From Gammaproteobacteria bacterium RIFOXYD12_FULL_61_37 (lineage in GTDB: Bacteria > Pseudomonadota > Gammaproteobacteria > Chromatiales > Chromatiaceae): a stretch of DNA of 64,000 nt. The translations under genes and the position numbers were made by a program. Where the stretch lies: NCBI GenBank assembly GCA_001801995.1, contig MGZB01000011.1:3817-67816 (forward strand), written 5' to 3'. How positions within the stretch are numbered: the stretch's first letter is position 1; every line of letters begins with the position of its first letter. The notes beneath the pieces were generated by a model. It was not told the DNA's origin. It did no database searches and was given only the letters and a program-made list of their open reading frames with translations. Of the stretch, positions 2,515-57,294 are shown in pieces.

Positions 2515-3795
<1,281 letters not shown>

Positions 3796-4330: not shown

Positions 4331-4969
4331 TCAGCTGCCCTTGGCGGTATTGCGCTGGGCCAGCCTTTTTACCAGGCCGCCGACGCCGATCTGACGAACC
4401 TCACCGCCGAAGCTGGTGCGGTAGTTGGATATCAGGCTGACGCCGTCGATCTTGAGATCGAAGACCTTCCACTGGCCATCCTTGGTGAGGTAGAGGCGAT
4501 AATCGATCGGAATTGCCGGACCGCCGCTGTTCCGCACCGCCGTCTTGACGACGGCGGTATTCTCGCCCTCCGTCATGCGGAAGGGTTTGTATTCGATCTC
4601 CTGACCGGAGTAATTCAGCAGGGCCGTGGCATAGGTGCGGACCAAGAGCTGCCGGAACTCCTTGACGAAGGAGCCCTGCTCGCCGGGGGTGGCCGAGCGC
4701 CAGTACTTGCCCAGCACCCGCTGGGACATCATTTCGAAGTCGAAGTGGGGCAGGACATCGGAGTTGACCAGGTTGTAAAGGCGCGAGGTGTCGGCCTTCA
4801 TGCCCTCCTTGTTGGCCAGCACCTTTTCCAGCACCTTGTCGGCCGTCTGCTTCACCAGTTGGTCCGGCGCGGTGCCCGCGAAGGCTTGGCCGGACAGCGC
4901 AAAAATGAAAAACAGCCCCGCCAGCTTGCCGAGACGAGATATCAAACTAACCTGCTTTGGATTCATCAC
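4331..4969 (-). CDS. mlaC: Phospholipid-binding periplasmic protein MlaC (Ttg2D family)
   Basis: 212 aa with a signal peptide (...ALSGQAFA). Position and resemblance fit the toluene-tolerance Ttg2D family. Confidence 0.88.
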   Translation of the reverse strand: MMNPKQVSLISRLGKLAGLFFIFALSGQAFAGTAPDQLVKQTADKVLEKVLANKEGMKADTSRLYNLVNSDVLPHFDFEMMSQRVLGKYWRSATPGEQGSFVKEFRQLLVRTYATALLNYSGQEIEYKPFRMTEGENTAVVKTAVRNSGGPAIPIDYRLYLTKDGQWKVFDLKIDGVSLISNYRTSFGGEVRQIGVGGLVKRLAQRNTAKGS

Positions 4970-5454
4970 TTAGCCCCTTCCGCGTTTTTTGCACCTTCAC
5001 TGGCCTTGCTGAACAGCACCTGGCCGATGATCTCTTCCAATACCAAGGCCGACTGGGTCATGCCGATCGCTCCGCCGTCCGCCATGTAAGTATCGCTACC
5101 GCCCGCCTCAAGGCCGATGTACTGCTCCCCGAGGAGTCCGGCAGTATATATTTTCGCAAAGGTATCGTCGGGGATTTTGCTGAACTTCTTGTCGATGGTC
5201 ATTCTGACCACCGCCTCGTAGCTCCCATCATCGAAACTGATCTCGCTCACCCGGCCGATCCTGACCCCCGACATGCTGACCGCAGCCTTGACCTTGAGGC
5301 TGCCGATATTGTCGAAACGGGCGGAGATGACATATCCCTCGCCATTGGACGTGGTACTCAGGTTACTGACCTGTAAGGCCAGAAAAAAGAGTGCCAGGAT
5401 GCCCATCGCCATGAAGGCCCCGACCATGATTTCTATTGTTTTCATGCGAAACAT
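4966..5454 (-). CDS. mlaD: MCE-domain protein MlaD
   Basis: 162 aa. One N-terminal transmembrane helix is followed by an MCE domain (GSLKVKAAVSMSGVRIGRV). The start overlaps the mlaC region. Confidence 0.9.
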   Translation of the reverse strand: MFRMKTIEIMVGAFMAMGILALFFLALQVSNLSTTSNGEGYVISARFDNIGSLKVKAAVSMSGVRIGRVSEISFDDGSYEAVVRMTIDKKFSKIPDDTFAKIYTAGLLGEQYIGLEAGGSDTYMADGGAIGMTQSALVLEEIIGQVLFSKASEGAKNAEGAK

Positions 5455-17157: not shown

Positions 17158-17373
17158 GACATCTCTCCCGTTGGATTGTGACTCTGAAAAACACTGTGTA
17201 GTGCGTGGCGCAAGGACATTTTGAACGCACTCCCCGTTTCGCAACGAGAACACTGAGGGAAGTTTGGTCCAGGAATGGCGAAAGGCCAATGATCCGCCTC
17301 ATCCTATCGCCCCGATTCGCCGGGTAAGGTATGCTTGCGGCCCCAAACCGCCCGATCAGCAAACCGAACCGCC

Positions 17374-19977
17374 ATGCAAGAGACCTACGTTCCCGCCCTC
17401 GTCGAAAGCGCCGCCCAGCAGTATTGGGGGGAGAATCAGAGCTTCAAGGCCGTCAAGGACTTGAGCCGGGAGAAGTTCTACTGCCTTTCCATGTTCCCCT
17501 ATCCTTCGGGCAAACTGCACATGGGCCATGTGCGCAACTACAGCATCGGCGATGTGATCGCCCGCTATCAGCGCATGCTGGGGAAGAATGTCCTGCAACC
17601 CATGGGCTGGGATGCCTTCGGCCTGCCGGCGGAGAACGCCGCCATCAAGCACGGCAAGCCGCCCGCCGAATGGACCCATGCCAACATCGATTATATGAAG
17701 GGCCAGCTCAATCGTCTGGGCTTCGGCTATGACTGGGACCGGGAGCTGGCCACCTGCGACCCCGAGTACTACCAATGGGAGCAGTGGCTGTTTACGCGAT
17801 TGGTGGAGAAGGGACTGGCCTATAAGAAAATGGCGACGGTCAACTGGGACCCGGTGGACCAGACGGTGCTGGCCAACGAGCAGGTGATCGACGGCAAGGG
17901 CTGGCGCTCGGGCGCCCCGGTCGAAAAGCGCGACATCGAGCAATGGTTCATCAAGATCACCGACTACGCCCAGGAGCTGCTGGACGGTCTGGATAAGCTC
18001 GCCGCCTGGCCGGACCAGGTGCGCACCATGCAGCGCAACTGGATCGGCCGTTCGGAAGGGGTGCAGATGCAATTTGACGTGCAGGGACGCACTAATGCCG
18101 CAGGTGCAGGAAGCGCAGGAGCGGCGGCCATCCAGGACAGCAGCGATATCCTGGAGATCTACACCACCCGCCCCGACACCCTCATGGGCGTGACCTATGT
18201 GGCCCTGGCCGCCGAGCATCCCCTGGCCATCCAGGCCGCCGGATCAAATCCGGCGCTGGCTGATTTCATTGCCGGCTGCAAGCAGGGTGGCGTCTCCGAG
18301 GCCGAGCTGGAGACCCTGGAGAAGCGGGGTTTCCCCCTCGGCATCCATGCCCTCCATCCGGTCAGCGGCGAGCCGGTCCCCGTCTACGCCGCCAACTTCG
18401 TCCTCATGGGCTACGGCACCGGCGCGGTCATGGCGGTCCCGGCCCACGACCAGCGCGATTGGGAGTTCGCGGAGAAATACGGCATCCCCAAGAAACAGGT
18501 CATCTTCTCCGCCGATGGCGGCGCTTGTGGCATCGAACAGGCCGCCTACGTGGAAAAGGGCGTACTGAGAAACTCCGGTCCCTTCGAAGGCCTGACCTCC
18601 GAACAGGCCTTCGGCGCCATCGCCGACTGGCTGGCCGAGCGGGGCAAGGGAGAGCGGCGGGTCAACTTCCGCCTGCGCGATTGGGGTGTCTCCCGCCAAC
18701 GTTATTGGGGCTGCCCCATCCCCATGATCAAGACCGCCGAGGGTGATTCCATCCCCGTTCCCGCCCATGAGCTGCCCGTCACCCTGCCCGAGGACGTGAT
18801 CGTGGACGGCTCCGGCTCGCCCCTGAAGCGCATGCCCGGCTTCTACGACCTGGGCGGCGGCCGGGAGCGGGAGACCGACACGTTCGACACCTTCTTCGAG
18901 TCGAGCTGGTACTACGCCCGCTACTGCTGCCCCCGCAACGACCAGGCCATGCTGGACGCGGAGGCCAACTACTGGCTGCCCGTGGACCAGTATGTCGGCG
19001 GCATCGAGCATGCCGTGCTTCATCTGCTCTACGCCCGCTTCTTCAATAAATTGATGCGGGACGAGGGCCTGGTCGCCTGCGACGAGCCTTTCACCCGTCT
19101 CCTGACCCAGGGGATGGTGGTGGCCGAGACCTACTACCGCCTGAACCCGGACGGCTCCAAGGAGTGGTTCAACCCGGCCGAGGTCGCGGTGGAGCGGGAC
19201 GAAAAGGGGCGGACCCTCAGTGCCCGCCTATTGAGCGACGGCGAGCCGGTGGTTGCCGGCGGCATCGAGAAGATGTCCAAATCGAAGAACAACGGCATCG
19301 ATCCCCAGGATCTGATCGATCGCTACGGTGCCGATACCGTGCGCCTCTACACCCTGTTCACCGCGCCACCGGATCAATCCCTGGAGTGGTCGGATGAGGG
19401 GGTCGAGGGGGCGCACCGGTTCCTCAAGCGGCTATGGGCACTGGCCCTGCGGACGCAAGGCGCGGTCCCCGCCGATACAACCCCTGCCGATTTTCCCGCC
19501 GCGCGGCGGGAATTGCACGCCACCCTCAAGAAGGCCCTGTTCGACTACGACCGCCAGCAGTTCAATACCGTGGTCTCCGCCTGCATGACCCTGGTCAATC
19601 TCCTCTATAAGCTGGGAGCGGGTGATGCGGATCAGGCCCTTCTGCGTGAGGGGCTCGGCATCGTCTTGCGCCTGCTCGCCCCCATAGCCCCCCATCTGAG
19701 CCATCACCTCTGGCGCGAGCTGGGTTACGGTGACGACATACTGAACGCCGGCTGGCCCCAGGTGGACGAGTCGGCACTGATCCAGGACAGCATCGAATAC
19801 GTGGTCCAGGTCAACGGCAAGATGCGCGCCAAGATCGAGGTCCCGGCCGGTGCAGATCGCCTGGCCATCGAGGCGGCGGCCAGGGCCAACGAAAACGTGC
19901 AACGATTCGCCGGGGATGCCACAATCCGCAAGATCGTGGTTGTGCCAAACAAACTGGTCAATATCGTGGCCAACTAG
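17374..19977 (+). CDS. leuS: Leucine--tRNA ligase
   Basis: HIGH motif in [11 protein letters not shown] and KMSKS motif in [10 protein letters not shown]. The start at 17374 (MQETYVP...) is preferred. Confidence 0.97.
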
Positions 19978-20013: not shown

Positions 20014-20526
20014 ATGAAAGTCGCCGCCAGATTCGTCTTCACGCTTGCCCTCGCCCTGTTCCTCTCGGCCTGCGAGGGTTTTCACCTGCGCGGCACCGCC
20101 GGGGACGTATCGCTTGAAGGCATCAACCCTCTGTATATCACCGGTCTCTCCGAGACGGATGAGTTTTATCGGATCTTGCGCGATTACCTGACCCATTATG
20201 GGGTGTCCGTCACGGACCGGAAGGAGGGTGCCGCCAAGCAACTGAGCATCTTCGATCGCCAATCGGAGAAGAAGGTCCATTCGGTCGGTGGGCGAGGCAA
20301 GGTCCTTGAGTATGAGTTGATCGAGGGCTTCGCCTATCACCTGGGTTCATCGGTCCCCGGTCAGATTGAACAGGAAGGCGCCAATCGCCTCAGCGTCAAC
20401 CGTGTCTACACCAATCCGGAGACCGAGGTGCTTGGGCGCGCGAACGAAGAGACCCAGATCTGGCGCGACATGCGCCAACAGTTGGCGAGCCGGCTCATTC
20501 GGATGCTCTCCGCCAAGGCCCGCTAA
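20014..20526 (+). CDS. lptE: LPS-assembly lipoprotein LptE
   Basis: 170 aa with lipobox LSAC. It occupies the conserved leuS-lptE-holA position. Confidence 0.85.
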   Translation: MKVAARFVFTLALALFLSACEGFHLRGTAGDVSLEGINPLYITGLSETDEFYRILRDYLTHYGVSVTDRKEGAAKQLSIFDRQSEKKVHSVGGRGKVLEYELIEGFAYHLGSSVPGQIEQEGANRLSVNRVYTNPETEVLGRANEETQIWRDMRQQLASRLIRMLSAKAR

Positions 20527-20704
20527 GGGTCTGTCCGGGAATAACATGAACATATTGCGCTCAGATTTGGGTCAGGTTTGGATGCGGCGACTGAGCAAAA
20601 CCGCAGGCGTAGCAGGGCTACGTCGAGGATTTTGCGATGGAGCTGCATTCAAAAATGGCCCGAAGATGAGATGCAAGATGTTCATGTTATTTACGGACAG
20701 GCCC
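20527..20704 (+). mobile_element. Long-hairpin MITE, copy 1 (178 bp), flanked by a direct TAA
   Basis: Terminal inverted repeats gggtctgtccgggaataacatgaacat / atgttcatgttatttacggacaggccc. The core matches the reverse complement of copy 2 (4 mismatches in an 84-nt stretch compared by eye). The flanking TAAs are 20524-20526 (the lptE stop) and 20705-20707. Confidence 0.85.
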
Positions 20705-20709
20705 TAAGC

Positions 20710-21732
20710 GTGCGGCTTCGCGCCGATCAACTGACGGGCCGTCTCGCCAAGCAATTCGACCCGGTTTATCTGATCAGCGGGGATGAGCCCCTGCAACTCA
20801 ACGAATCGGCGGACGCCTTGCGCCGCGCTGCGGTCCGCAACGGTTTCAGCGAGCGGATATTGTTCGAGGTCCAGGCCGGATTCCAGTGGGGCGACCTGGC
20901 CGGCGAAGCCAACAGCCTCTCACTCTTTGCCGATAAACGCCTCATCGACCTGCGGCTCAAGTCCAGCGCCATCGGTGTTGAAGGCAGCAAGGCCCTGGCC
21001 GATTACTGCGCCGCGCCGCCGCCGGATACCCTGCTTCTGATCACCGCCCCAAAACTGGAACACAAGCAGCTCGGCACCAAGTGGGTCAAGGCCATCGAGA
21101 CGGTTGGCGTTCTCGTGCAGATCTGGCCCATCACCGCCGATCGCCTCACGCCTTGGCTGGAACAGCGCATGAGGAGCAAGGGGCTGACGCCCGAGGCCGG
21201 CGTGGTGCCGATGCTGGCCGAACGGGTGGAGGGCAACCTCCTGGCCGCCGTCCAGGAGATCGAAAAGCTGCTGTTGCTCCAGGGTCCCGGCGTCGTCAGT
21301 GTTCAGGCGTTGACCCAGGCCGTTGCCGACAGCGCCCGCTTCGATGTCTACAATCTGGTGGACAAGGCCCTGCAGGGCGATGCTGCCCGCTGCGTCCGTA
21401 TTCTCGCCGGCCTGCGCGCGGAGGGGGTCGCCGAGCCCATCGTCCTTTGGGCGTTGGCGCGGGAGCTGCGTTCCCTCTCGGCCATGGCCAGGGAGGTGCG
21501 GCAAGGGATGCCCATCGAATCCGCCATGGCCAAGGCCGGGATCTGGGACAAACGCAAATCCATCGTGCAAGGTGCCCTCCGCCGCCTGCGCCAGTCCCAG
21601 ATACAGGAGCTGATCCGCCAGTGCCGGGACGCGGACATACAGATCAAAGGGGTCGCCCCCGGCAACCCCTGGGATATCTTCGAACGGATCGTCCTGGGTC
21701 TGGGTGGGGTGGGATTCAGGCTTTGCGCCTAA
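20710..21732 (+). CDS. holA: DNA polymerase III delta subunit
   Basis: VRLRADQLTGRLAKQFDPVYLISGDEPLQ resembles the HolA N-terminus. GTG at 20710 is chosen as the start. In-frame upstream codons (ATG at 20671, ORF-track start at 20578) lie inside the MITE. Confidence 0.85.
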   Translation: MRLRADQLTGRLAKQFDPVYLISGDEPLQLNESADALRRAAVRNGFSERILFEVQAGFQWGDLAGEANSLSLFADKRLIDLRLKSSAIGVEGSKALADYCAAPPPDTLLLITAPKLEHKQLGTKWVKAIETVGVLVQIWPITADRLTPWLEQRMRSKGLTPEAGVVPMLAERVEGNLLAAVQEIEKLLLLQGPGVVSVQALTQAVADSARFDVYNLVDKALQGDAARCVRILAGLRAEGVAEPIVLWALARELRSLSAMAREVRQGMPIESAMAKAGIWDKRKSIVQGALRRLRQSQIQELIRQCRDADIQIKGVAPGNPWDIFERIVLGLGGVGFRLCA

Positions 21733-21911
21733 GGGCTCGTAAAGAAATAACTTGAACATCTTGCATCTCGTCTTCGGGCCATCTTTGGACGCGGCTCAAT
21801 CGCAAAATCCTCGACGTAGCGCTGCTACGCCTGCGGCTTTGCTCAATCGCCGCATCCAAACCTGACCCAAATCCGAGCGCAATCTTGCCCAAGTTATTTC
21901 TTTACGAGCCC
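21733..21911 (-). mobile_element. Long-hairpin MITE, copy 2 (179 bp), opposite orientation, flanked by a direct TAA
   Basis: Terminal inverted repeats gggctcgtaaagaaataacttg / caagttatttctttacgagccc. The flanking TAAs are 21730-21732 (the holA stop) and 21912-21914. Confidence 0.85.
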
Positions 21912-21945
21912 TAACCTACTCAAATGTAACAACGTAGAATCAAAC

Positions 21946-23229
21946 ATGAGTCAGCAAACCCCAATCATCATCGATATCCCCGCCTACCTGGACGAGCTGG
22001 GCCGCCGGGCGCGGGCCGCCTCGCGCCATTTGGCCGCCGCCGACACGGCGGCGAAGAATGGCGCCTTGAACGCCATCGCCCATGACCTGGACAGCCACCG
22101 CGAGGCACTGATGGCGGAGAACCGCAAGGACCTGGAGGCAGGTAAGGCCAAAGGTCTGGACGCGGCCCTGCTGGACCGGCTGGAACTCACCCCTGGCCGC
22201 ATCGACGACATGATCGAAGGGTTGCGTCAGGTCGCCGCCCTGCCTGATCCCGTGGGCCAGATCTTCGACCTGAACTACCGCCCCAGCGGCATCCAGGTGG
22301 GCCGCATGCGCGTCCCCCTGGGCGTGGTCGGCATCATCTACGAGTCCCGGCCCAACGTCACCGCCGACGCCGCCGCGCTTTGTTTGAAATCGGGCAATGC
22401 CACGGTACTGCGAGGCGGTTCCGAGGCATTCCATTCCAACCAGATCATCGCCGCCTCCATCCACCGGGGGCTGGAGGCGGCTGGCCTGCCCGCCGACGCC
22501 GTACAGGTACTTGCCACCACCGACCGCGCCGCCGTGAGCCGGATGGTCGCCCTGCCGGAATACATCGATGTCATCATCCCCCGGGGCGGCAAGGGGCTGA
22601 TCGAGCGCATCGCCGCCGAGGCGCGGGTGCCGGTGATCAAGCACCTGCACGGCATCTGCCATGTCTACGTGGACGACGAGGCCGATCCGCAAAAGGCCTT
22701 CGACGTGGCCCTCAACGCCAAGACCCAGCGCTACGGCACCTGCAACACCATGGAGACCCTGCTGGTCAACGAGACCATCGCGCCCGACTTTCTGCCTGCC
22801 ATGGCGGCGGCCTATTGGGAGAAGGGGGTGGAGCTGCGCGGCTGCGACCTGACCCGCGCCATCCTGGGTGAAAAATGCCTGGCCGCCACGGCAGAGGACT
22901 GGGATACCGAGTACCTGGCACCGATCCTTTCGATCCGGGTGGTGGCCGGCATGGATGAGGCCATGGCCCACATTGCCGCCCATGGCTCCCTGCACACTGA
23001 CAGCATCATTACTGAAAACCTCACCAAGGCCCGTCGCTTCCTGCGCGAGGTGGACTCCAGCTCGGTCATGGTCAATGCCTCCACCCGCTTCGCCGATGGC
23101 TTCGAGTACGGCCTGGGGGCGGAGATCGGCATTTCCACCGACAAGTTCCACGCCCGTGGTCCGGTGGGGCTTGAGGGCCTGACCTCGGTCAAGTTCATCG
23201 TTCTGGGGGACGGCCATATCCGTAAATGA
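21946..23229 (+). CDS. proA: Gamma-glutamyl phosphate reductase
   Basis: 427 aa. IYESRPNVT and the catalytic Cys context [11 protein letters not shown]. Confidence 0.95.
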
Positions 23230-23861
23230 TCGGCATCTACGGCGGCACCTTCGATCCCGTCCACCATGGCCACCTGCGCCCGGCCCTGGAGGTCATGGAA
23301 GCCCTGGGGCTGGATGAGGTCCGCTTTCTGCCGTTGCGCCGGGCCGTACATCGGGAGCAGCCCATTGCCACCCAGGACCAGCGTCTCGCCATGCTGCGCG
23401 CCGCCCTGGCCGGCCAGCCCGGCTTTGTTATCGACGAGATCGAACTGGAGCGGGACGGCCCCTCTTACATGGTCGATACCCTCCGCCAACTGCGCGGCAA
23501 ACTCCCCGGCCGGACCCTCTGCCTCTTGCTCGGCGGGGACGCCTTCAACGGCTTTATGACGTGGCGTGAACCGGAAGCGATCTCCAGCCTCTGCCATCTC
23601 GTCGTGATGCAGCGGCCGGGCCACCGGCTGCCCGAGGAGCCTCGGCTGAGGGCACTGGTGCAAGAACGCCATAGTCCCTCGGCTGGGGCATTGGCCGAGC
23701 CGGACGGCGGGCGGATCTTCTTTCAACCCGTCACCCAGCTCGACATCTCGGCGACGGACATCAGAAGGCGCGCGGCAAACGGGCAATCCCTGCGATTCCT
23801 GCTGCCGGACAGCGTCATGCGCATCATTTGCGAACAAAACCTCTACACCGGTCATCATTGA
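23226..23861 (+). CDS. nadD: Nicotinate-nucleotide adenylyltransferase
   Basis: 211 aa. [11 protein letters not shown] motif. The start overlaps the proA stop. Confidence 0.93.
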
Positions 23862-49523: not shown

Positions 49524-49628
49524 TATGGGCAAGCCTTCATTCGTCGATTTAGTCGCCACCGATCCTGGCCCGATAATGATGCCTGTTATCGAAACTCCCT
49601 GCTATCCTTCAACGCAATCCAGTCATCG
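49524..49628 (+). repeat. ~105-bp repeat, copy 1 (inverted partner at 57191-57294)
   Basis: tatgggcaagccttcattcgtcgatttagtcgccaccgatcctggcccgataatgatgcctgttatcgaaactccctgctatccttcaacgcaatccagtcatcg matches the reverse complement of 57191-57294, apart from a few substitutions and one 1-nt indel. Confidence 0.9.
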
Positions 49629-55118: not shown

Positions 55119-55216
55119 GGGCGCCCGCCATGATCGTAGGTTGGGTTACGACTGCATGGATGCAGGAGGTAGGGCGAAGCAGGAAGCCAGAGCCGAGGCG
55201 CGCAAACCCCGTATTG

Positions 55217-55355
55217 ATCGTTCGCACGCTCCGGCGTGGGACTGCCGCTCGCGACGCTCCGGCGTCGCGGGTTGGCGGAAACCGGAGGTCTGCGTCGGCC
55301 CCGGGACGCTGGAGCGTCCCAGGATGCATTCCCACGCCGGAGCGTGGGAACGATC
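55217..55355. repeat. Array of four small REP hairpins (family C) inside the atpF-atpA spacer
   Basis: cacgctccggcgtg, gcgacgctccggcgtcgc, gggacgctggagcgtccc and cccacgccggagcgtggg. The outer arms gatcgttcgcacgc... / ...gcgtgggaacgatc are themselves inverted. Confidence 0.8.
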
Positions 55356-55382
55356 AAAAAGTCCTGGAAAAACAGGGTGGGA

Positions 55383-57190: not shown

Positions 57191-57294
57191 CGATGACGGG
57201 ACTGCGTTGAAGGATAGCAGGGAGTTTCGATAACAGGCATCATTATCGGCCAGGATCGGTGGCGACTAAATCGGCGAATGAAGGCTTGCCCATA
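57191..57294 (-). repeat. ~105-bp repeat, copy 2 (inverted partner of 49524-49628)
   Basis: See copy 1. This copy lies about 98 nt upstream of atpB and faces it. Confidence 0.9.

What the first reader, a model, noticed from the sequence alone, without database searches (positions are those of the whole stretch)
20527..21911. Two copies of a long-hairpin MITE inserted exactly at the TAA stop codons of lptE and holA, in opposite orientation
Seen: the elements at 20527-20704 and 21733-21911 share a conserved core. I counted 4 mismatches over an 84-nt stretch when copy 2 is reverse-complemented. Each element is an imperfect palindrome along its whole length.

Each has ~22-27-bp terminal inverted repeats and is flanked by a direct TAA. 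In both cases the left TAA is the stop codon of the upstream gene: lptE at 20524-20526 and holA at 21730-21732.

The termini differ between copies (gggtctgtccgggaataacatg... against gggctcgtaaagaaataacttg...). Within each copy the two ends still match each other. That suggests compensatory change that preserves a hairpin.

Established: TA or TNA target duplications are typical of IS630/Tc1 and of some IS5-group transposases, whose non-autonomous derivatives form MITEs.

Inference: the essential gene holA is now bracketed by inverted repeats about 1 kb apart. These could promote inversion, and they add long hairpins to the leuS-lptE-holA transcript.
Basis: partly seen in the sequence, partly recalled or inferred. 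Interest (0 to 1): 0.6.

Follow-up and report, generated by a model that had tools for sequence, protein, structure and literature searches.

The report
Two ISAzo13-type hairpin MITEs flanking holA
Two copies of a small, non-coding jumping element that folds into a long hairpin sit exactly on the stop codons of lptE and holA. This is an ordinary kind of bacterial mobile element, but the family is very widespread and only one of its two DNA strands is kept foldable.

Summary
Elements at 20527-20704 and 21733-21911 are inverted copies (84% identical overall, 4 differences in the best 84 columns). Each is a near-perfect 178-179-bp palindrome flanked by TAA/TAA, and each left TAA is the lptE or holA stop codon.

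They are true MITEs.
- A strain about 96% identical carries the precise empty site GCCCGCTAAGCGTG, and so do more distant relatives.
- More than 119 related loci exist in Desulfobacterota, Gammaproteobacteria and other phyla.
- Family-wide the flanks are a 3-bp duplication (TAA 29, TTA 11, TGA 1 of 58) in a YTWAR target.

The parent is most likely an ISAzo13-family (Zator-like) IS, not IS630 or IS5. An IS end with a PF07592 transposase matches the copy-1 terminus 19/22 and aligns over 44 nt. ISAzo13 elements make 3-bp duplications.

Landing on a stop codon is not a family rule (8/58). It follows from the TAA target in compact GC-rich operons. The differing termini mark two subfamilies, not change in place.

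The family was listed in 2009 as uncharacterised Geobacter "short RNA elements".

One feature is unusual. One strand keeps 97% pairing through G:U pairs (275 G:U against 20 A·C). This points to selection on a single-stranded form.

The parts
20014..20526 (+). lptE; its TAA stop (20524-20526) is the left copy of the 3-bp target duplication of element 1
   Evidence: ORF. PF04390 LptE, E 6.6e-11. Sequence.
20527..20704 (+). MITE copy 1, 178 bp. The well-folding 'A' strand is the + strand. Termini are GGGTCTGTCCGGGAATAACATG and the reverse complement of GGGCCTGTCCGTAAATAACATG.
   Evidence: Family profile scores 150 bits on + against 27 bits on -. Absent from a strain about 96% identical.
20606..20624 (+). 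Apex hairpin of copy 1 (GGCGTAGC-AGG-GCTACGTC), the most conserved part of the family
   Evidence: Stem columns are invariant in 55 distinct copies. Pattern match.
20705..20707 (+). Right copy of the TAA target duplication of element 1, 2 nt before the holA GTG start
   Evidence: The empty allele reads GCCCGCTAAGCGTGCGG.
20710..21732 (+). holA (DNA polymerase III delta), GTG start. Its TAA stop (21730-21732) is the left target duplication of element 2.
   Evidence: PF06144, PF14840 and PF21694. The start aligns with relatives that begin VRLRADQL. An in-frame ATG at 20671 inside copy 1 explains the 353-aa gene calls.
21733..21911 (-). MITE copy 2, 179 bp, of a different terminal subfamily (GGGCTCGTAAAGAAATAACTTG at both ends). 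The 'A' strand is the - strand.
   Evidence: Family profile scores 157.5 bits on - against 25 bits on +.
21813..21831 (-). Apex hairpin of copy 2. On the + strand it reads GACGTAGCGCTGCTACGCC, an exact match to the published Geobacter motif GRCGTAGCGCTGCTACGCC.
   Evidence: PMC2700814, Additional file 4.
21912..21914 (+). Right copy of the TAA target duplication of element 2, 31 nt before the proA ATG (21946)

Best explanation
Both elements are non-autonomous transposons (MITEs) of one large family. Their ends are those of ISAzo13-family (Zator-like, DDE) insertion sequences.

How the insertions arose:
- Members of two terminal subfamilies inserted independently into two YTWAR sites, CTAAG after lptE and CTAAC after holA.
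- A transposase supplied in trans binds the terminal inverted repeats and makes cuts staggered by 3 nt. Repair duplicates TAA.
- Because the target was the stop codon itself, the left duplicate regenerates the stop. Neither essential gene is altered.
- In a GC-rich, tightly packed operon (lptE stop and holA start only 2 nt apart in the empty allele) the stop codon is almost the only harmless TWA. That explains the coincidence.

Consequences:
- Both elements are probably co-transcribed with leuS-lptE-holA-proA.
- Copy 1 then forms the strong hairpin in the mRNA. Copy 2 forms the weaker complementary-strand hairpin.

Shown: repeat structure, duplication, empty alleles, family distribution, and the match of the termini to an ISAzo13 element.

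Inferred: mobilisation by that transposase, co-transcription, and any effect on expression.
For: - Structure and duplications.
- Precise empty allele of copy 1: a contig joint 20522->20704 skipping 181 nt in four groundwater runs, and contig L127 reading GCCCGCTAAGCGTG. In L127 the first 75 nt after the holA stop are a different spacer without copy 2.
- More distant relatives (HolA 77, 71 and 67% identical) have lptE and holA 0-2 nt apart, and two of them (L124, L125) show holA-proA spacers of 37-62 nt without an element.
- Family: more than 119 loci. Matching 3-bp flanks in 41 of 58 full copies. Target YTWAR.
- Parent: scanning metagenomes with the copy-1 terminus found more copies and one IS end, GGGCCTGTCTGGAAATAACATG. 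It lies 10 nt after the stop of a 401-aa ORF that scores 482 bits on PF07592 DDE_Tnp_ISAZ013.
- That IS end aligns with the copy-1 left arm over 44 nt, z 10.5.
- Related ISs in L140-L143 have similar ends, and all eight of their flanking triplets are TAA or TTA.
- ISAzo13 and Zator elements make 3-bp duplications (PMC10045372).
Against: - No ISAzo13 transposase lies in the 64-kb window or in the 119 family loci. The matching IS comes from a different metagenome contig of unknown host.
- The left end of that IS was not recovered.
- In the one IS copy with long flanks (L140) the flanks are TAA and TTA, not identical.
- The central ~90 nt of the MITE, its most conserved part, has no counterpart in the ISs examined. 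Simple internal deletion of an IS therefore does not explain the whole element.
- A transposase acting on double-stranded ends does not predict the strong strand asymmetry of the hairpin.
- Transcription at this locus could not be tested, because no RNA run holds it.
Confidence: 0.8

Rival explanations
1. The element is mobile, but what is maintained is a strand-specific single-stranded hairpin. One form of this idea is a functional RNA made from the 'A' strand. Another is a single-stranded DNA form of that strand that the transposition machinery needs, with the paired termini presented as one duplex and the internal loops marking the strand, much as integron attC sites do. Copies whose A strand no longer folds would then fail to give rise to new copies.
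For: - In 55 distinct full copies the paired cells are 2653 Watson-Crick, 275 G:U and only 20 A.C. Pairing is 97.1% on the A strand and 88.7% on the other strand.
- Counted as events on a tree: WC->GU 64, GU->WC 29, WC->AC 19, AC->WC 0, binomial p 7e-7.
- The asymmetry holds at pairs where the reference copy is Watson-Crick (127 against 17). An independent motif gives the same orientation for all 55 copies.
- In nearly all of the ~100 family copies folded, the A strand folds better, typically by 10-45 kcal/mol.
- The inner stem shows 15 pairs changed on both sides, with 0 of 500 shuffles reaching the observed values.
- GAUUGAG is conserved on both arms although the two copies cannot pair.
- The core is nearly identical across phyla while the termini differ.
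- Core-bearing contigs are present in soil metatranscriptomes.
Against: - A-strand orientation is unrelated to flanking gene direction (7 sense, 7 antisense). Host read-through transcripts therefore cannot be the selected form.
- No promoter or terminator consensus lies in the elements.
- The two window copies lie 1 kb apart in opposite orientation, so there is no fixed relation to the replication fork.
- The 31-bp derivatives that keep only the termini have TTA/TTA flanks at two loci, which suggests the termini alone may suffice for movement.
- Metatranscriptome contigs carry no strand information and may contain DNA.
- A strand-biased mutation process, such as cytosine deamination on one exposed strand, was not excluded.
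Confidence: 0.3
2. The hairpins are host regulatory or structural RNA elements that spread because they benefit the cell, for example as RNase III or RNase E processing sites, mRNA stabilisers or uncoupling devices in operons. Mobility would be incidental. At this locus they would tune the relative expression of lptE, holA and proA.
For: - Comparable hairpin repeats act in this way. Correia elements can create promoters, bind IHF and be cut or protected by RNase III (PMC2649163).
- The Geobacter members were annotated as predicted short RNA elements inside co-transcribed operons (dapAB-element-dapL; PMC2700814).
- Copies lie more often between convergent genes (16) than divergent genes (7).
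- The stems are very stable.
Against: - The insertions are polymorphic between strains about 96% identical, and absent from all more distant relatives examined. They are therefore not a conserved part of this operon's regulation.
- Orientation relative to genes is random.
- Insertion sites are unrelated genes across many phyla.
- No expression data exist for this locus.
Confidence: 0.15
3. The two segments are not transposed elements. They would be a local inverted duplication of an intergenic hairpin or terminator, kept similar by gene conversion.
For: Only two copies occur in the 64-kb window, 1 kb apart and inverted.
Against: - Each copy has its own TAA/TAA duplication.
- The termini differ by subfamily, and each subfamily is found elsewhere.
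- A precise empty allele exists for copy 1.
- More than 119 loci in other genomes carry the family.
- No intrinsic-terminator signature is present.
Confidence: 0.02

Closest known systems
[quoted passage not shown] 2009, PMC2700814, Additional file 4). Also reported in G. sulfurreducens (GSU0160.1), G. uraniireducens and Desulfotalea psychrophila.
   Same: - The central palindrome is the same. Copy 2 on the + strand reads GACGTAGCGCTGCTACGCC, an exact match to GRCGTAGCGCTGCTACGCC.
- Members R1003, R1015 and R1021 also share the flanking CTCAATCGCA.AATCCTCGACGTAGC...GCTACGCCTGCGGTT...CTCAATCG core.
- They are intergenic and multicopy, and some lie inside co-transcribed operons.
   Different: - The published elements were delimited as ~113 nt and treated as candidate RNAs of unknown function.
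- No terminal inverted repeats, target duplication, transposase or mobility were described.
- Most listed members belong to diverged sub-types that share only the apex.
ISAzo13-family insertion sequences (PF07592 transposase; related to the eukaryotic Zator superfamily)
   Same: - The terminal sequence GGGNCTGTCNNNAAATAAC matches. The copy-1 terminus is 19/22 identical to the L139 IS end, and the alignment extends to 44 nt.
- Flanks are TAA or TTA.
- The family makes 3-bp duplications (PMC10045372).
   Different: - The MITE has no transposase gene.
- Its central ~90 nt, including the conserved apex, is not found in the IS copies examined.
- No ISAzo13-derived MITE was found in the 13 papers of the held library that mention the family.
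Correia (CREE/NEMIS) elements of Neisseria and ERIC elements of enterobacteria
   Same: - They are 100-200-bp non-coding repeats with terminal inverted repeats, a conserved core and whole-length hairpins.
- They occur in either orientation inside transcription units and have terminal subtypes.
- The mobilising enzyme is not encoded nearby (PMC2649163, PMC3184786).
   Different: - Those make a TA duplication and are restricted to one genus or family. This family makes a TWA duplication and spans several phyla.
- No sequence similarity was seen, and no Rfam family matched.
- RNase III or IHF interactions are untested here.
Chunjie MITE of Geobacter uraniireducens Rf4 (Chen et al. 2008)
   Same: It comes from the same bacterial group, has the same size range (178-235 bp), forms very stable hairpins (-98 to -130 kcal/mol), and can sit in an operon without disrupting it (PMC3184786, PMC10969869).
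   Different: - Chunjie has 9-bp direct repeats (for example ACGACCGGT; PMC6042816), not 3-bp TWA.
- Its sequence could not be compared because the original paper is not held.
REPINs (REP doublets mobilised by RAYT transposases) and integron attC sites
   Same: They are hairpin-forming repeats in which structure rather than sequence is conserved and one strand is the active form. This resembles the strand asymmetry seen here.
   Different: - Neither makes target duplications.
- REPINs are built from 20-25-nt REP units, and attC sites flank cassettes in one orientation.
- The resemblance is functional analogy recalled from general knowledge, not a tested relationship.

Membership tests
MITE (non-autonomous DDE-type transposon) | Short, with no coding capacity for a transposase | tested here: met
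   178 and 179 bp. No transposase similarity in the window.
MITE (non-autonomous DDE-type transposon) | Terminal inverted repeats | tested here: met
   Termini match 26/30 (copy 1) and 25/30 (copy 2).
MITE (non-autonomous DDE-type transposon) | Target-site duplication of fixed length | tested here: met
   TAA/TAA at both window copies. Family-wide TAA/TAA 29, TTA/TTA 11, TGA/TGA 1 of 58, with only one TTA/TAA mix.
MITE (non-autonomous DDE-type transposon) | Many dispersed copies, and empty sites at orthologous positions | tested here: met
   More than 119 loci and 11 more of the copy-1 subfamily. Empty allele in four runs and in L127. Empty junctions in L121, L124 and L125.
MITE (non-autonomous DDE-type transposon) | An autonomous element with the same termini | tested here: met
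   L139 is an IS end 19/22 identical to the copy-1 terminus, next to a PF07592 transposase. It was found in another metagenome contig, not in this genome.
ISAzo13-family derivative | Termini like those of ISAzo13-family ISs | tested here: met
   L139, L140 and L141-143 ends are GGG(G/C/A)(C/T)TGTCT..AAATAAC. MITE subfamilies have GGGTCTGTCCGGGAATAAC, GGGGCTGTCCAAAAATAAG and GGGCTTGTCCGTAAATAAG.
ISAzo13-family derivative | 3-bp target duplication | tested here: met
   The family property is taken from PMC10045372.
ISAzo13-family derivative | Mobilisation by an ISAzo13 transposase present in the same cell | not testable with these tools
   No such gene in the window or the family loci. The whole genome is not available here and no assay is possible.
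IS630/Tc1-mariner derivative | TA dinucleotide duplication | tested here: not met
   Flanks are 3 nt, and the middle base matches on both sides in 40 of 41 TWA cases. With TAA flanks the base next to the terminus is A, not TA.
IS5 / PIF-Harbinger derivative | Termini shared with an element that encodes an IS5-type (DDE_Tnp_1) transposase | tested here: inconclusive
   A TWA duplication is compatible with this group. However, the only transposase-bearing element found with matching termini carries PF07592, and no IS5-type partner was seen. The search was not exhaustive.
Gmet_R1001-1024 'short RNA elements' (Aklujkar 2009) | Central palindrome GRCGTAGCGCTGCTACGCC in a multicopy intergenic repeat | tested here: met
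   Copy 2 (+ strand) is an exact match. Copy 1 (- strand) reads GACGTAGCCCTGCTACGCC and differs only in the loop.
Chunjie MITE | 9-bp direct repeats flanking 21-bp terminal repeats | tested here: not met
   The duplication here is 3 bp. Chunjie values come from PMC6042816 and PMC3184786.
Any Rfam RNA family | Score at or above the family's gathering threshold | tested here: not met
   No matches in the window. Only far sub-threshold microRNA-hairpin matches in the E-value search.
REPIN / RAYT system | No target duplication; built from two inverted REP units | tested here: not met
   A clear 3-bp duplication and 20-25-nt transposon-type termini are present.

The most novel reading that the evidence does not exclude
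The family propagates, or is retained, through a single-stranded form of one particular strand. The 'A' strand would have to fold into the full hairpin, as RNA or as single-stranded DNA. The conserved apex (CGTAGC-NNN-GCTACG) and the unpaired GAUUGAG loops would act as strand-specific recognition marks. Different ISAzo13-type termini, and in Bacillota CTAG-flanked termini, would have been grafted onto this conserved module. If so, it would be a cross-phylum, structure-dependent mobile module rather than a plain deletion derivative of an IS.
Probability: 0.25. Interest if true: 0.8.

Novelty: new member of a known kind. Interest (0 to 1): 0.5.

Why it matters
At this locus the result is mainly an annotation point.
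- lptE and holA are intact. The 353-aa HolA calls start inside a transposon.
- Metagenome contigs break or become chimeric at these repeats.

Beyond the locus, three things are worth following up.
1. A repeat family listed since 2009 as unexplained Geobacter "short RNA elements" can now be read as a MITE with a defined target (YTWAR), a 3-bp duplication and a probable ISAzo13-type mobiliser. No MITE of that family turned up in the held literature.
2. The family spans several phyla with a nearly invariant core but interchangeable termini. This is the reverse of the usual MITE pattern.
3. The roughly 14:1 excess of G:U over A·C pairs makes it testable whether a bacterial MITE needs a single-stranded hairpin form to spread or to be tolerated.

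Two copies in inverted orientation around an essential gene are also a potential substrate for inversion, although none was seen.

Tried and rejected
- Chunjie MITE: recalled as a lead but rejected on its 9-bp direct repeats. The original paper is not held.
- Rfam: nothing at gathering thresholds. Only weak microRNA-hairpin noise in the E-value search.
- Literature search by sequence strings: only the 2009 Geobacter paper.
- Plasmid collection searched with the element and with eight concatenated termini: no match.
- Orphan termini in the 119 family loci, as a route to an autonomous IS: only displaced or nested copies were found.
- Half-elements (L006, L103, L106): they adjoin ordinary genes, not transposases.
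- Stop-codon preference: 8 of 58 copies against 9% of all TAA sites, so no meaningful enrichment.
- Orientation bias relative to flanking genes: none, 7 against 7.
- Promoter or terminator consensus in the elements: none.
- RNA evidence at this locus: no run available. Soil metatranscriptome contigs carry the core but give no strand and may include DNA.
- Contigs L120 and L126, which join copy 1 to other genes, looked like rearrangements. Their left flanks belong to other copies (L129, L137), so they are most simply assembly chimeras at the repeat.
- The tool's own MAFFT alignment shifts one terminal subfamily by a column and creates false A·C cells in the outer helix. The counts used come from the G-INS-i alignment and from the inner helices only.
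Full report
**The observation**

The window carries leuS (17335-19977), lptE (20014-20526), holA (20710-21732), proA (21946-23229) and nadD (23226-23861), all confirmed by Pfam.

Between lptE and holA, and again between holA and proA, lie two segments that are reverse complements of each other.
- The arms are 155 nt long and 88% complementary.
- Globally the copies are 150/179 identical.
- The inner part is 116/127 identical, but the outer 26 nt only 15/26 and 19/26.
- Each copy is a whole-length hairpin, with z about -16 against shuffles.
- Each is bounded by TAA on both sides. The left TAA is the stop codon of lptE or holA.
- The 36-nt core occurs twice in 64 kb against none expected. A family profile finds no further copies in the window.

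**Are they mobile elements?**

Four lines of evidence say yes.

1. A related population lacks copy 1. Four groundwater metagenome runs hold a strain about 96% identical, and in each a contig joins 20522 to 20704, skipping 181 nt. That is the element plus one TAA.
2. The corresponding contig L127 reads ...GCCCGCTAAGCGTGCGGCTTC.... In L127 the 75 nt after the holA stop are a different spacer that carries a small REP-like hairpin and no copy 2.
3. Relatives with HolA 77, 71 and 67% identical have lptE and holA 0-2 nt apart, and two of them (L124, L125) show holA-proA spacers of 37-62 nt without any element.
The loci are mostly Geobacterales, Syntrophobacterales, Desulfobulbales and a marine gammaproteobacterial MAG with many copies. 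Variants occur in Bacillota. Single MAG assignments to Bacteroidota and Nitrospirota could be binning errors.

In the source metagenomes, contig depth over the element is 8-18 times that of the flanks. This counts every copy in the community that is at least 90% similar, so it is only an upper bound on copies per genome.

**Anatomy of the family**

Full-length members are about 180 bp.
- They begin with G(G/A)(G/C) and end with the complement.
- Of 58 full copies, the flanks are TAA/TAA in 29, TTA/TTA in 11 and TGA/TGA in 1. Only one copy mixes TTA with TAA, and the rest look like single-base decay.
- The duplication is therefore 3 bp, T-W-A. The base before it is C/T in 34 of 42 cases and the base after it A/G in 35 of 42, giving a palindromic YTWAR target. 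Copy 1 sits in CTAAG, the commonest site.
- The terminal 20-25 nt fall into discrete subfamilies: GGGCTTGTCCGTAAATAA, GGGACTCGGAA.., GGCGTCGAGCAAGAATAA, GGGCCTGTAAGAAAATAA, GGGGCTGTCCAAAAATAA and the two window types.
- The inner ~100 nt is nearly the same everywhere, and the stem of the apex hairpin is invariant.

The two window copies thus belong to two different subfamilies, each found in other genomes.

**The likely mobiliser**

I scanned metagenome contigs with the copy-1 terminus, GGGYCTGTCYGNRAATAACATG.
- The scan returned more full copies, with flanks TGA, TAA, TAA and TTA.
- It returned two 31-bp derivatives consisting only of the joined termini, with TTA/TTA flanks.
- It returned one contig, L139, in which the terminus is followed by non-MITE sequence.

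In L139 the terminus lies 10 nt after the stop codon of a 401-aa ORF. That ORF scores 482 bits on PF07592 (DDE_Tnp_ISAZ013), and its homologues are named ISAzo13-family transposases.

Further support:
- The IS end is 19/22 identical to the copy-1 terminus. The alignment extends to 44 nt of the copy-1 left arm, z 10.5.
- Related ISs have ends GGGGCTGTCTACAAATAACA / GGGCCTGTCTAGAAACAAAG or GGGATTGTCTATAAATAACA / GGTACTGTCTAGAAATAATG. All eight of their flanking triplets are TAA or TTA.
- ISAzo13 and its eukaryotic relative Zator are reported to make 3-bp duplications (PMC10045372; PMC5718144).

The family is therefore best read as ISAzo13-derived, not IS630/Tc1 or IS5.

Caveats:
- No such transposase lies in the window or in the family loci.
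- The left end of the L139 IS was not recovered.
- The one IS copy with long flanks has TAA on one side and TTA on the other.

**Why the stop codons?**

Across the family the duplication coincides with the stop codon of an open frame of at least 80 codons in only 8 of 58 copies. For all TAA triplets in the same loci the figure is 9%. There is no stop-codon targeting as such.

The target is TWA. In a GC-rich operon whose genes are 2 nt apart, the TAA stop is almost the only TWA where an insertion is harmless. The duplication rebuilds the stop. Two out of two in this window is what selection on essential genes would leave.

A side effect is an in-frame ATG at 20671 inside copy 1. This explains the 353-aa HolA predictions in public annotation.

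**Prior knowledge**

- The core is not in Rfam.
- It is not Chunjie, which has 9-bp repeats.
- It was listed by Aklujkar et al. [quoted passage not shown] - Copy 2 matches that motif exactly.
- Those authors delimited about 113 nt and did not describe termini, duplications or mobility.
- None of the 13 papers in the held library that mention ISAzo13 describes a MITE of that family.

**The unusual feature: strand asymmetry**

I call the strand that reads GCAGGCGTAGC...GCTACGTCGAGGATTTTGC the A strand.
- In both window copies, and in almost every family member, the A strand folds better than its complement, typically by 10-45 kcal/mol.
- In 55 distinct full copies the paired cells are 2653 Watson-Crick, 275 G:U and 20 A·C. 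Pairing is 97.1% on the A strand and 88.7% on the other.
- Counted as events on a neighbour-joining tree: WC→GU 64, GU→WC 29, WC→AC 19, AC→WC 0 (p 7e-7). The excess is concentrated in the inner stem.
- The asymmetry is not an orientation artefact. The non-palindromic GATTGA motif orients all 55 copies the same way. At pairs where the reference copy is Watson-Crick the count is still 127 G:U against 17 A·C.
- The inner stem has 15 pairs changed on both sides, and 0 of 500 shuffles reach the observed values.

Double-stranded DNA treats a G:T and an A·C mismatch alike, so something acts on one single strand.

It is not host read-through transcription. A-strand orientation relative to tandem flanking genes is 7 sense against 7 antisense, and the two window copies are opposed.

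Three possibilities remain:
- an RNA made from the element itself, although no promoter consensus is present;
- a single-stranded DNA stage in transposition;
- a strand-biased mutation process.

I could not separate these. Soil metatranscriptomes contain many distinct contigs with the core, but these carry no strand information and may include DNA.

**How it most likely works here**

Shown:
- two independent insertions of ISAzo13-type MITEs;
- TAA duplications that preserve both stop codons;
- insertions that arose after the lineage diverged from the ~96%-identical strain that lacks copy 1.

Inferred:
- mobilisation in trans by an ISAzo13 transposase encoded elsewhere;
- co-transcription with the operon, so that the mRNA carries the strong hairpin at the lptE-holA junction and the weaker complementary hairpin after holA;
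- possible effects on RNA processing or on translational coupling of holA.

The hairpin brings the lptE stop and the holA start back to within a few nucleotides in space, which might help reinitiation. This is speculation.

The inverted pair could support RecA-dependent inversion of holA. The few opposite-strand contig joints cannot be distinguished from other copies of the repeat.

**Verdict**

This is a real and correctly described pair of MITEs. Their kind is already known, and their family had been noticed but not characterised.

Interest is moderate. It rests on the cross-phylum conserved core with exchangeable termini and on the strong single-strand signature, both of which are testable.

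Noticed in passing
L134:5970-6003 and L136:1294-1330: Two unrelated loci carry a 31-bp mini-element, GGG(T/C)CTGTCCGGGAATAACATGGACAGGCCC. It consists of just the joined termini of the copy-1 subfamily and is flanked by TTA/TTA. It is either a mobile minimal derivative or a recurrent hairpin deletion.
   Followed up: partly
L023, L036, L039, L042, L097, L028 (Bacillota and Clostridia genomes): A variant of about 167 bp keeps the same apex and inner core but has different termini (GGTAAGCGCCGAT.. or GGAATCGCTGAT..). It is flanked by CTAG on both sides and sometimes occurs in tandem, which suggests a different transposase type (TA or CTAG duplication) attached to the same core.
   Followed up: partly
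L017:~3490-3620, L048:~4910-5035, L102:~2420-2545: Shorter hairpin repeats (~125-135 nt) share only the apex GGCGTAGC-NNN-GCTACGCC with otherwise different stems. They resemble most of the Gmet_R10xx members. The apex appears to be a module shared by several repeat families.
   Followed up: no
L024:~2460-2912 and L040:~362-660: In these family copies one terminus is displaced by 200-340 nt. This is consistent with another small element nested inside the MITE next to an internal CCCTAA.
   Followed up: no
L120:1-360 and L126:1-1750: Public contigs with an identical holA join copy 1 on its left to unrelated genes. The left flanks and the slightly different left arms belong to other copies (L129, L137), so these look like assembly chimeras formed at the repeat. 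They also show at least two more copies of this subfamily in the same community.
   Followed up: yes
window 20671-20709: An ATG inside copy 1 is in frame with holA, and the TAA at 20705 is out of frame. Gene callers therefore produce a 353-aa HolA with 13 transposon-encoded residues (P0121, P0124). Relatives start at the GTG at 20710.
   Followed up: partly
L127:1173-1247: In the sister strain the spacer after the holA stop is different. It ends in a perfect small hairpin, GTAGGTCGGCCTGAAGGCCGACCTAC, whose last five bases (CCTAC) are the first bases after copy 2 in the window. The same position may have been hit by different small elements.
   Followed up: no
window 49524-49628 and 57191-57294: A 105-nt inverted repeat (97-98% identical) brackets 7.6 kb. 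The interval holds an ATP synthase operon (A chain, alpha/beta subunit) and a Uma2-family gene. One arm overlaps the start of an ABC-F ATPase gene and the other precedes a GtrA-like gene.
   Followed up: partly
window 55214-55357: A 144-nt palindrome inside the ATP synthase operon has 58-nt arms that are 84% complementary. It is built from REP-like units (CCCACGCCGGAGCGTGGGAACGA, GCGACGCTCCGGCGTCGC) and is unrelated to the MITE family.
   Followed up: no
L139:1-213 (- strand): Next to the ISAzo13-type IS there is the start of an ORF on the other strand, MRTGRPKQPLVLE...SNQEIARRLGVTGATVGKWRERYR. From memory this resembles the helix-turn-helix N-terminus of IS630-family transposases, which would suggest neighbouring or nested ISs. 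This may be why the left end of the IS was not found. The Pfam check failed on my coordinates.
   Followed up: no
family loci L001-L119: Read on the A strand, the duplication is TAA in 30 copies and TTA in 11. This points to an orientation preference relative to the central base of the target. Shared ancestry of some copies was not excluded.
   Followed up: no
L079:6518-6591 in runs X21-X24: Soil metatranscriptome assemblies contain many different contigs that carry the conserved core, with depth 15-127 (6-10 in X24) against about 2-5 in the flanks. No strand information is available and DNA carry-over is possible.
   Followed up: partly
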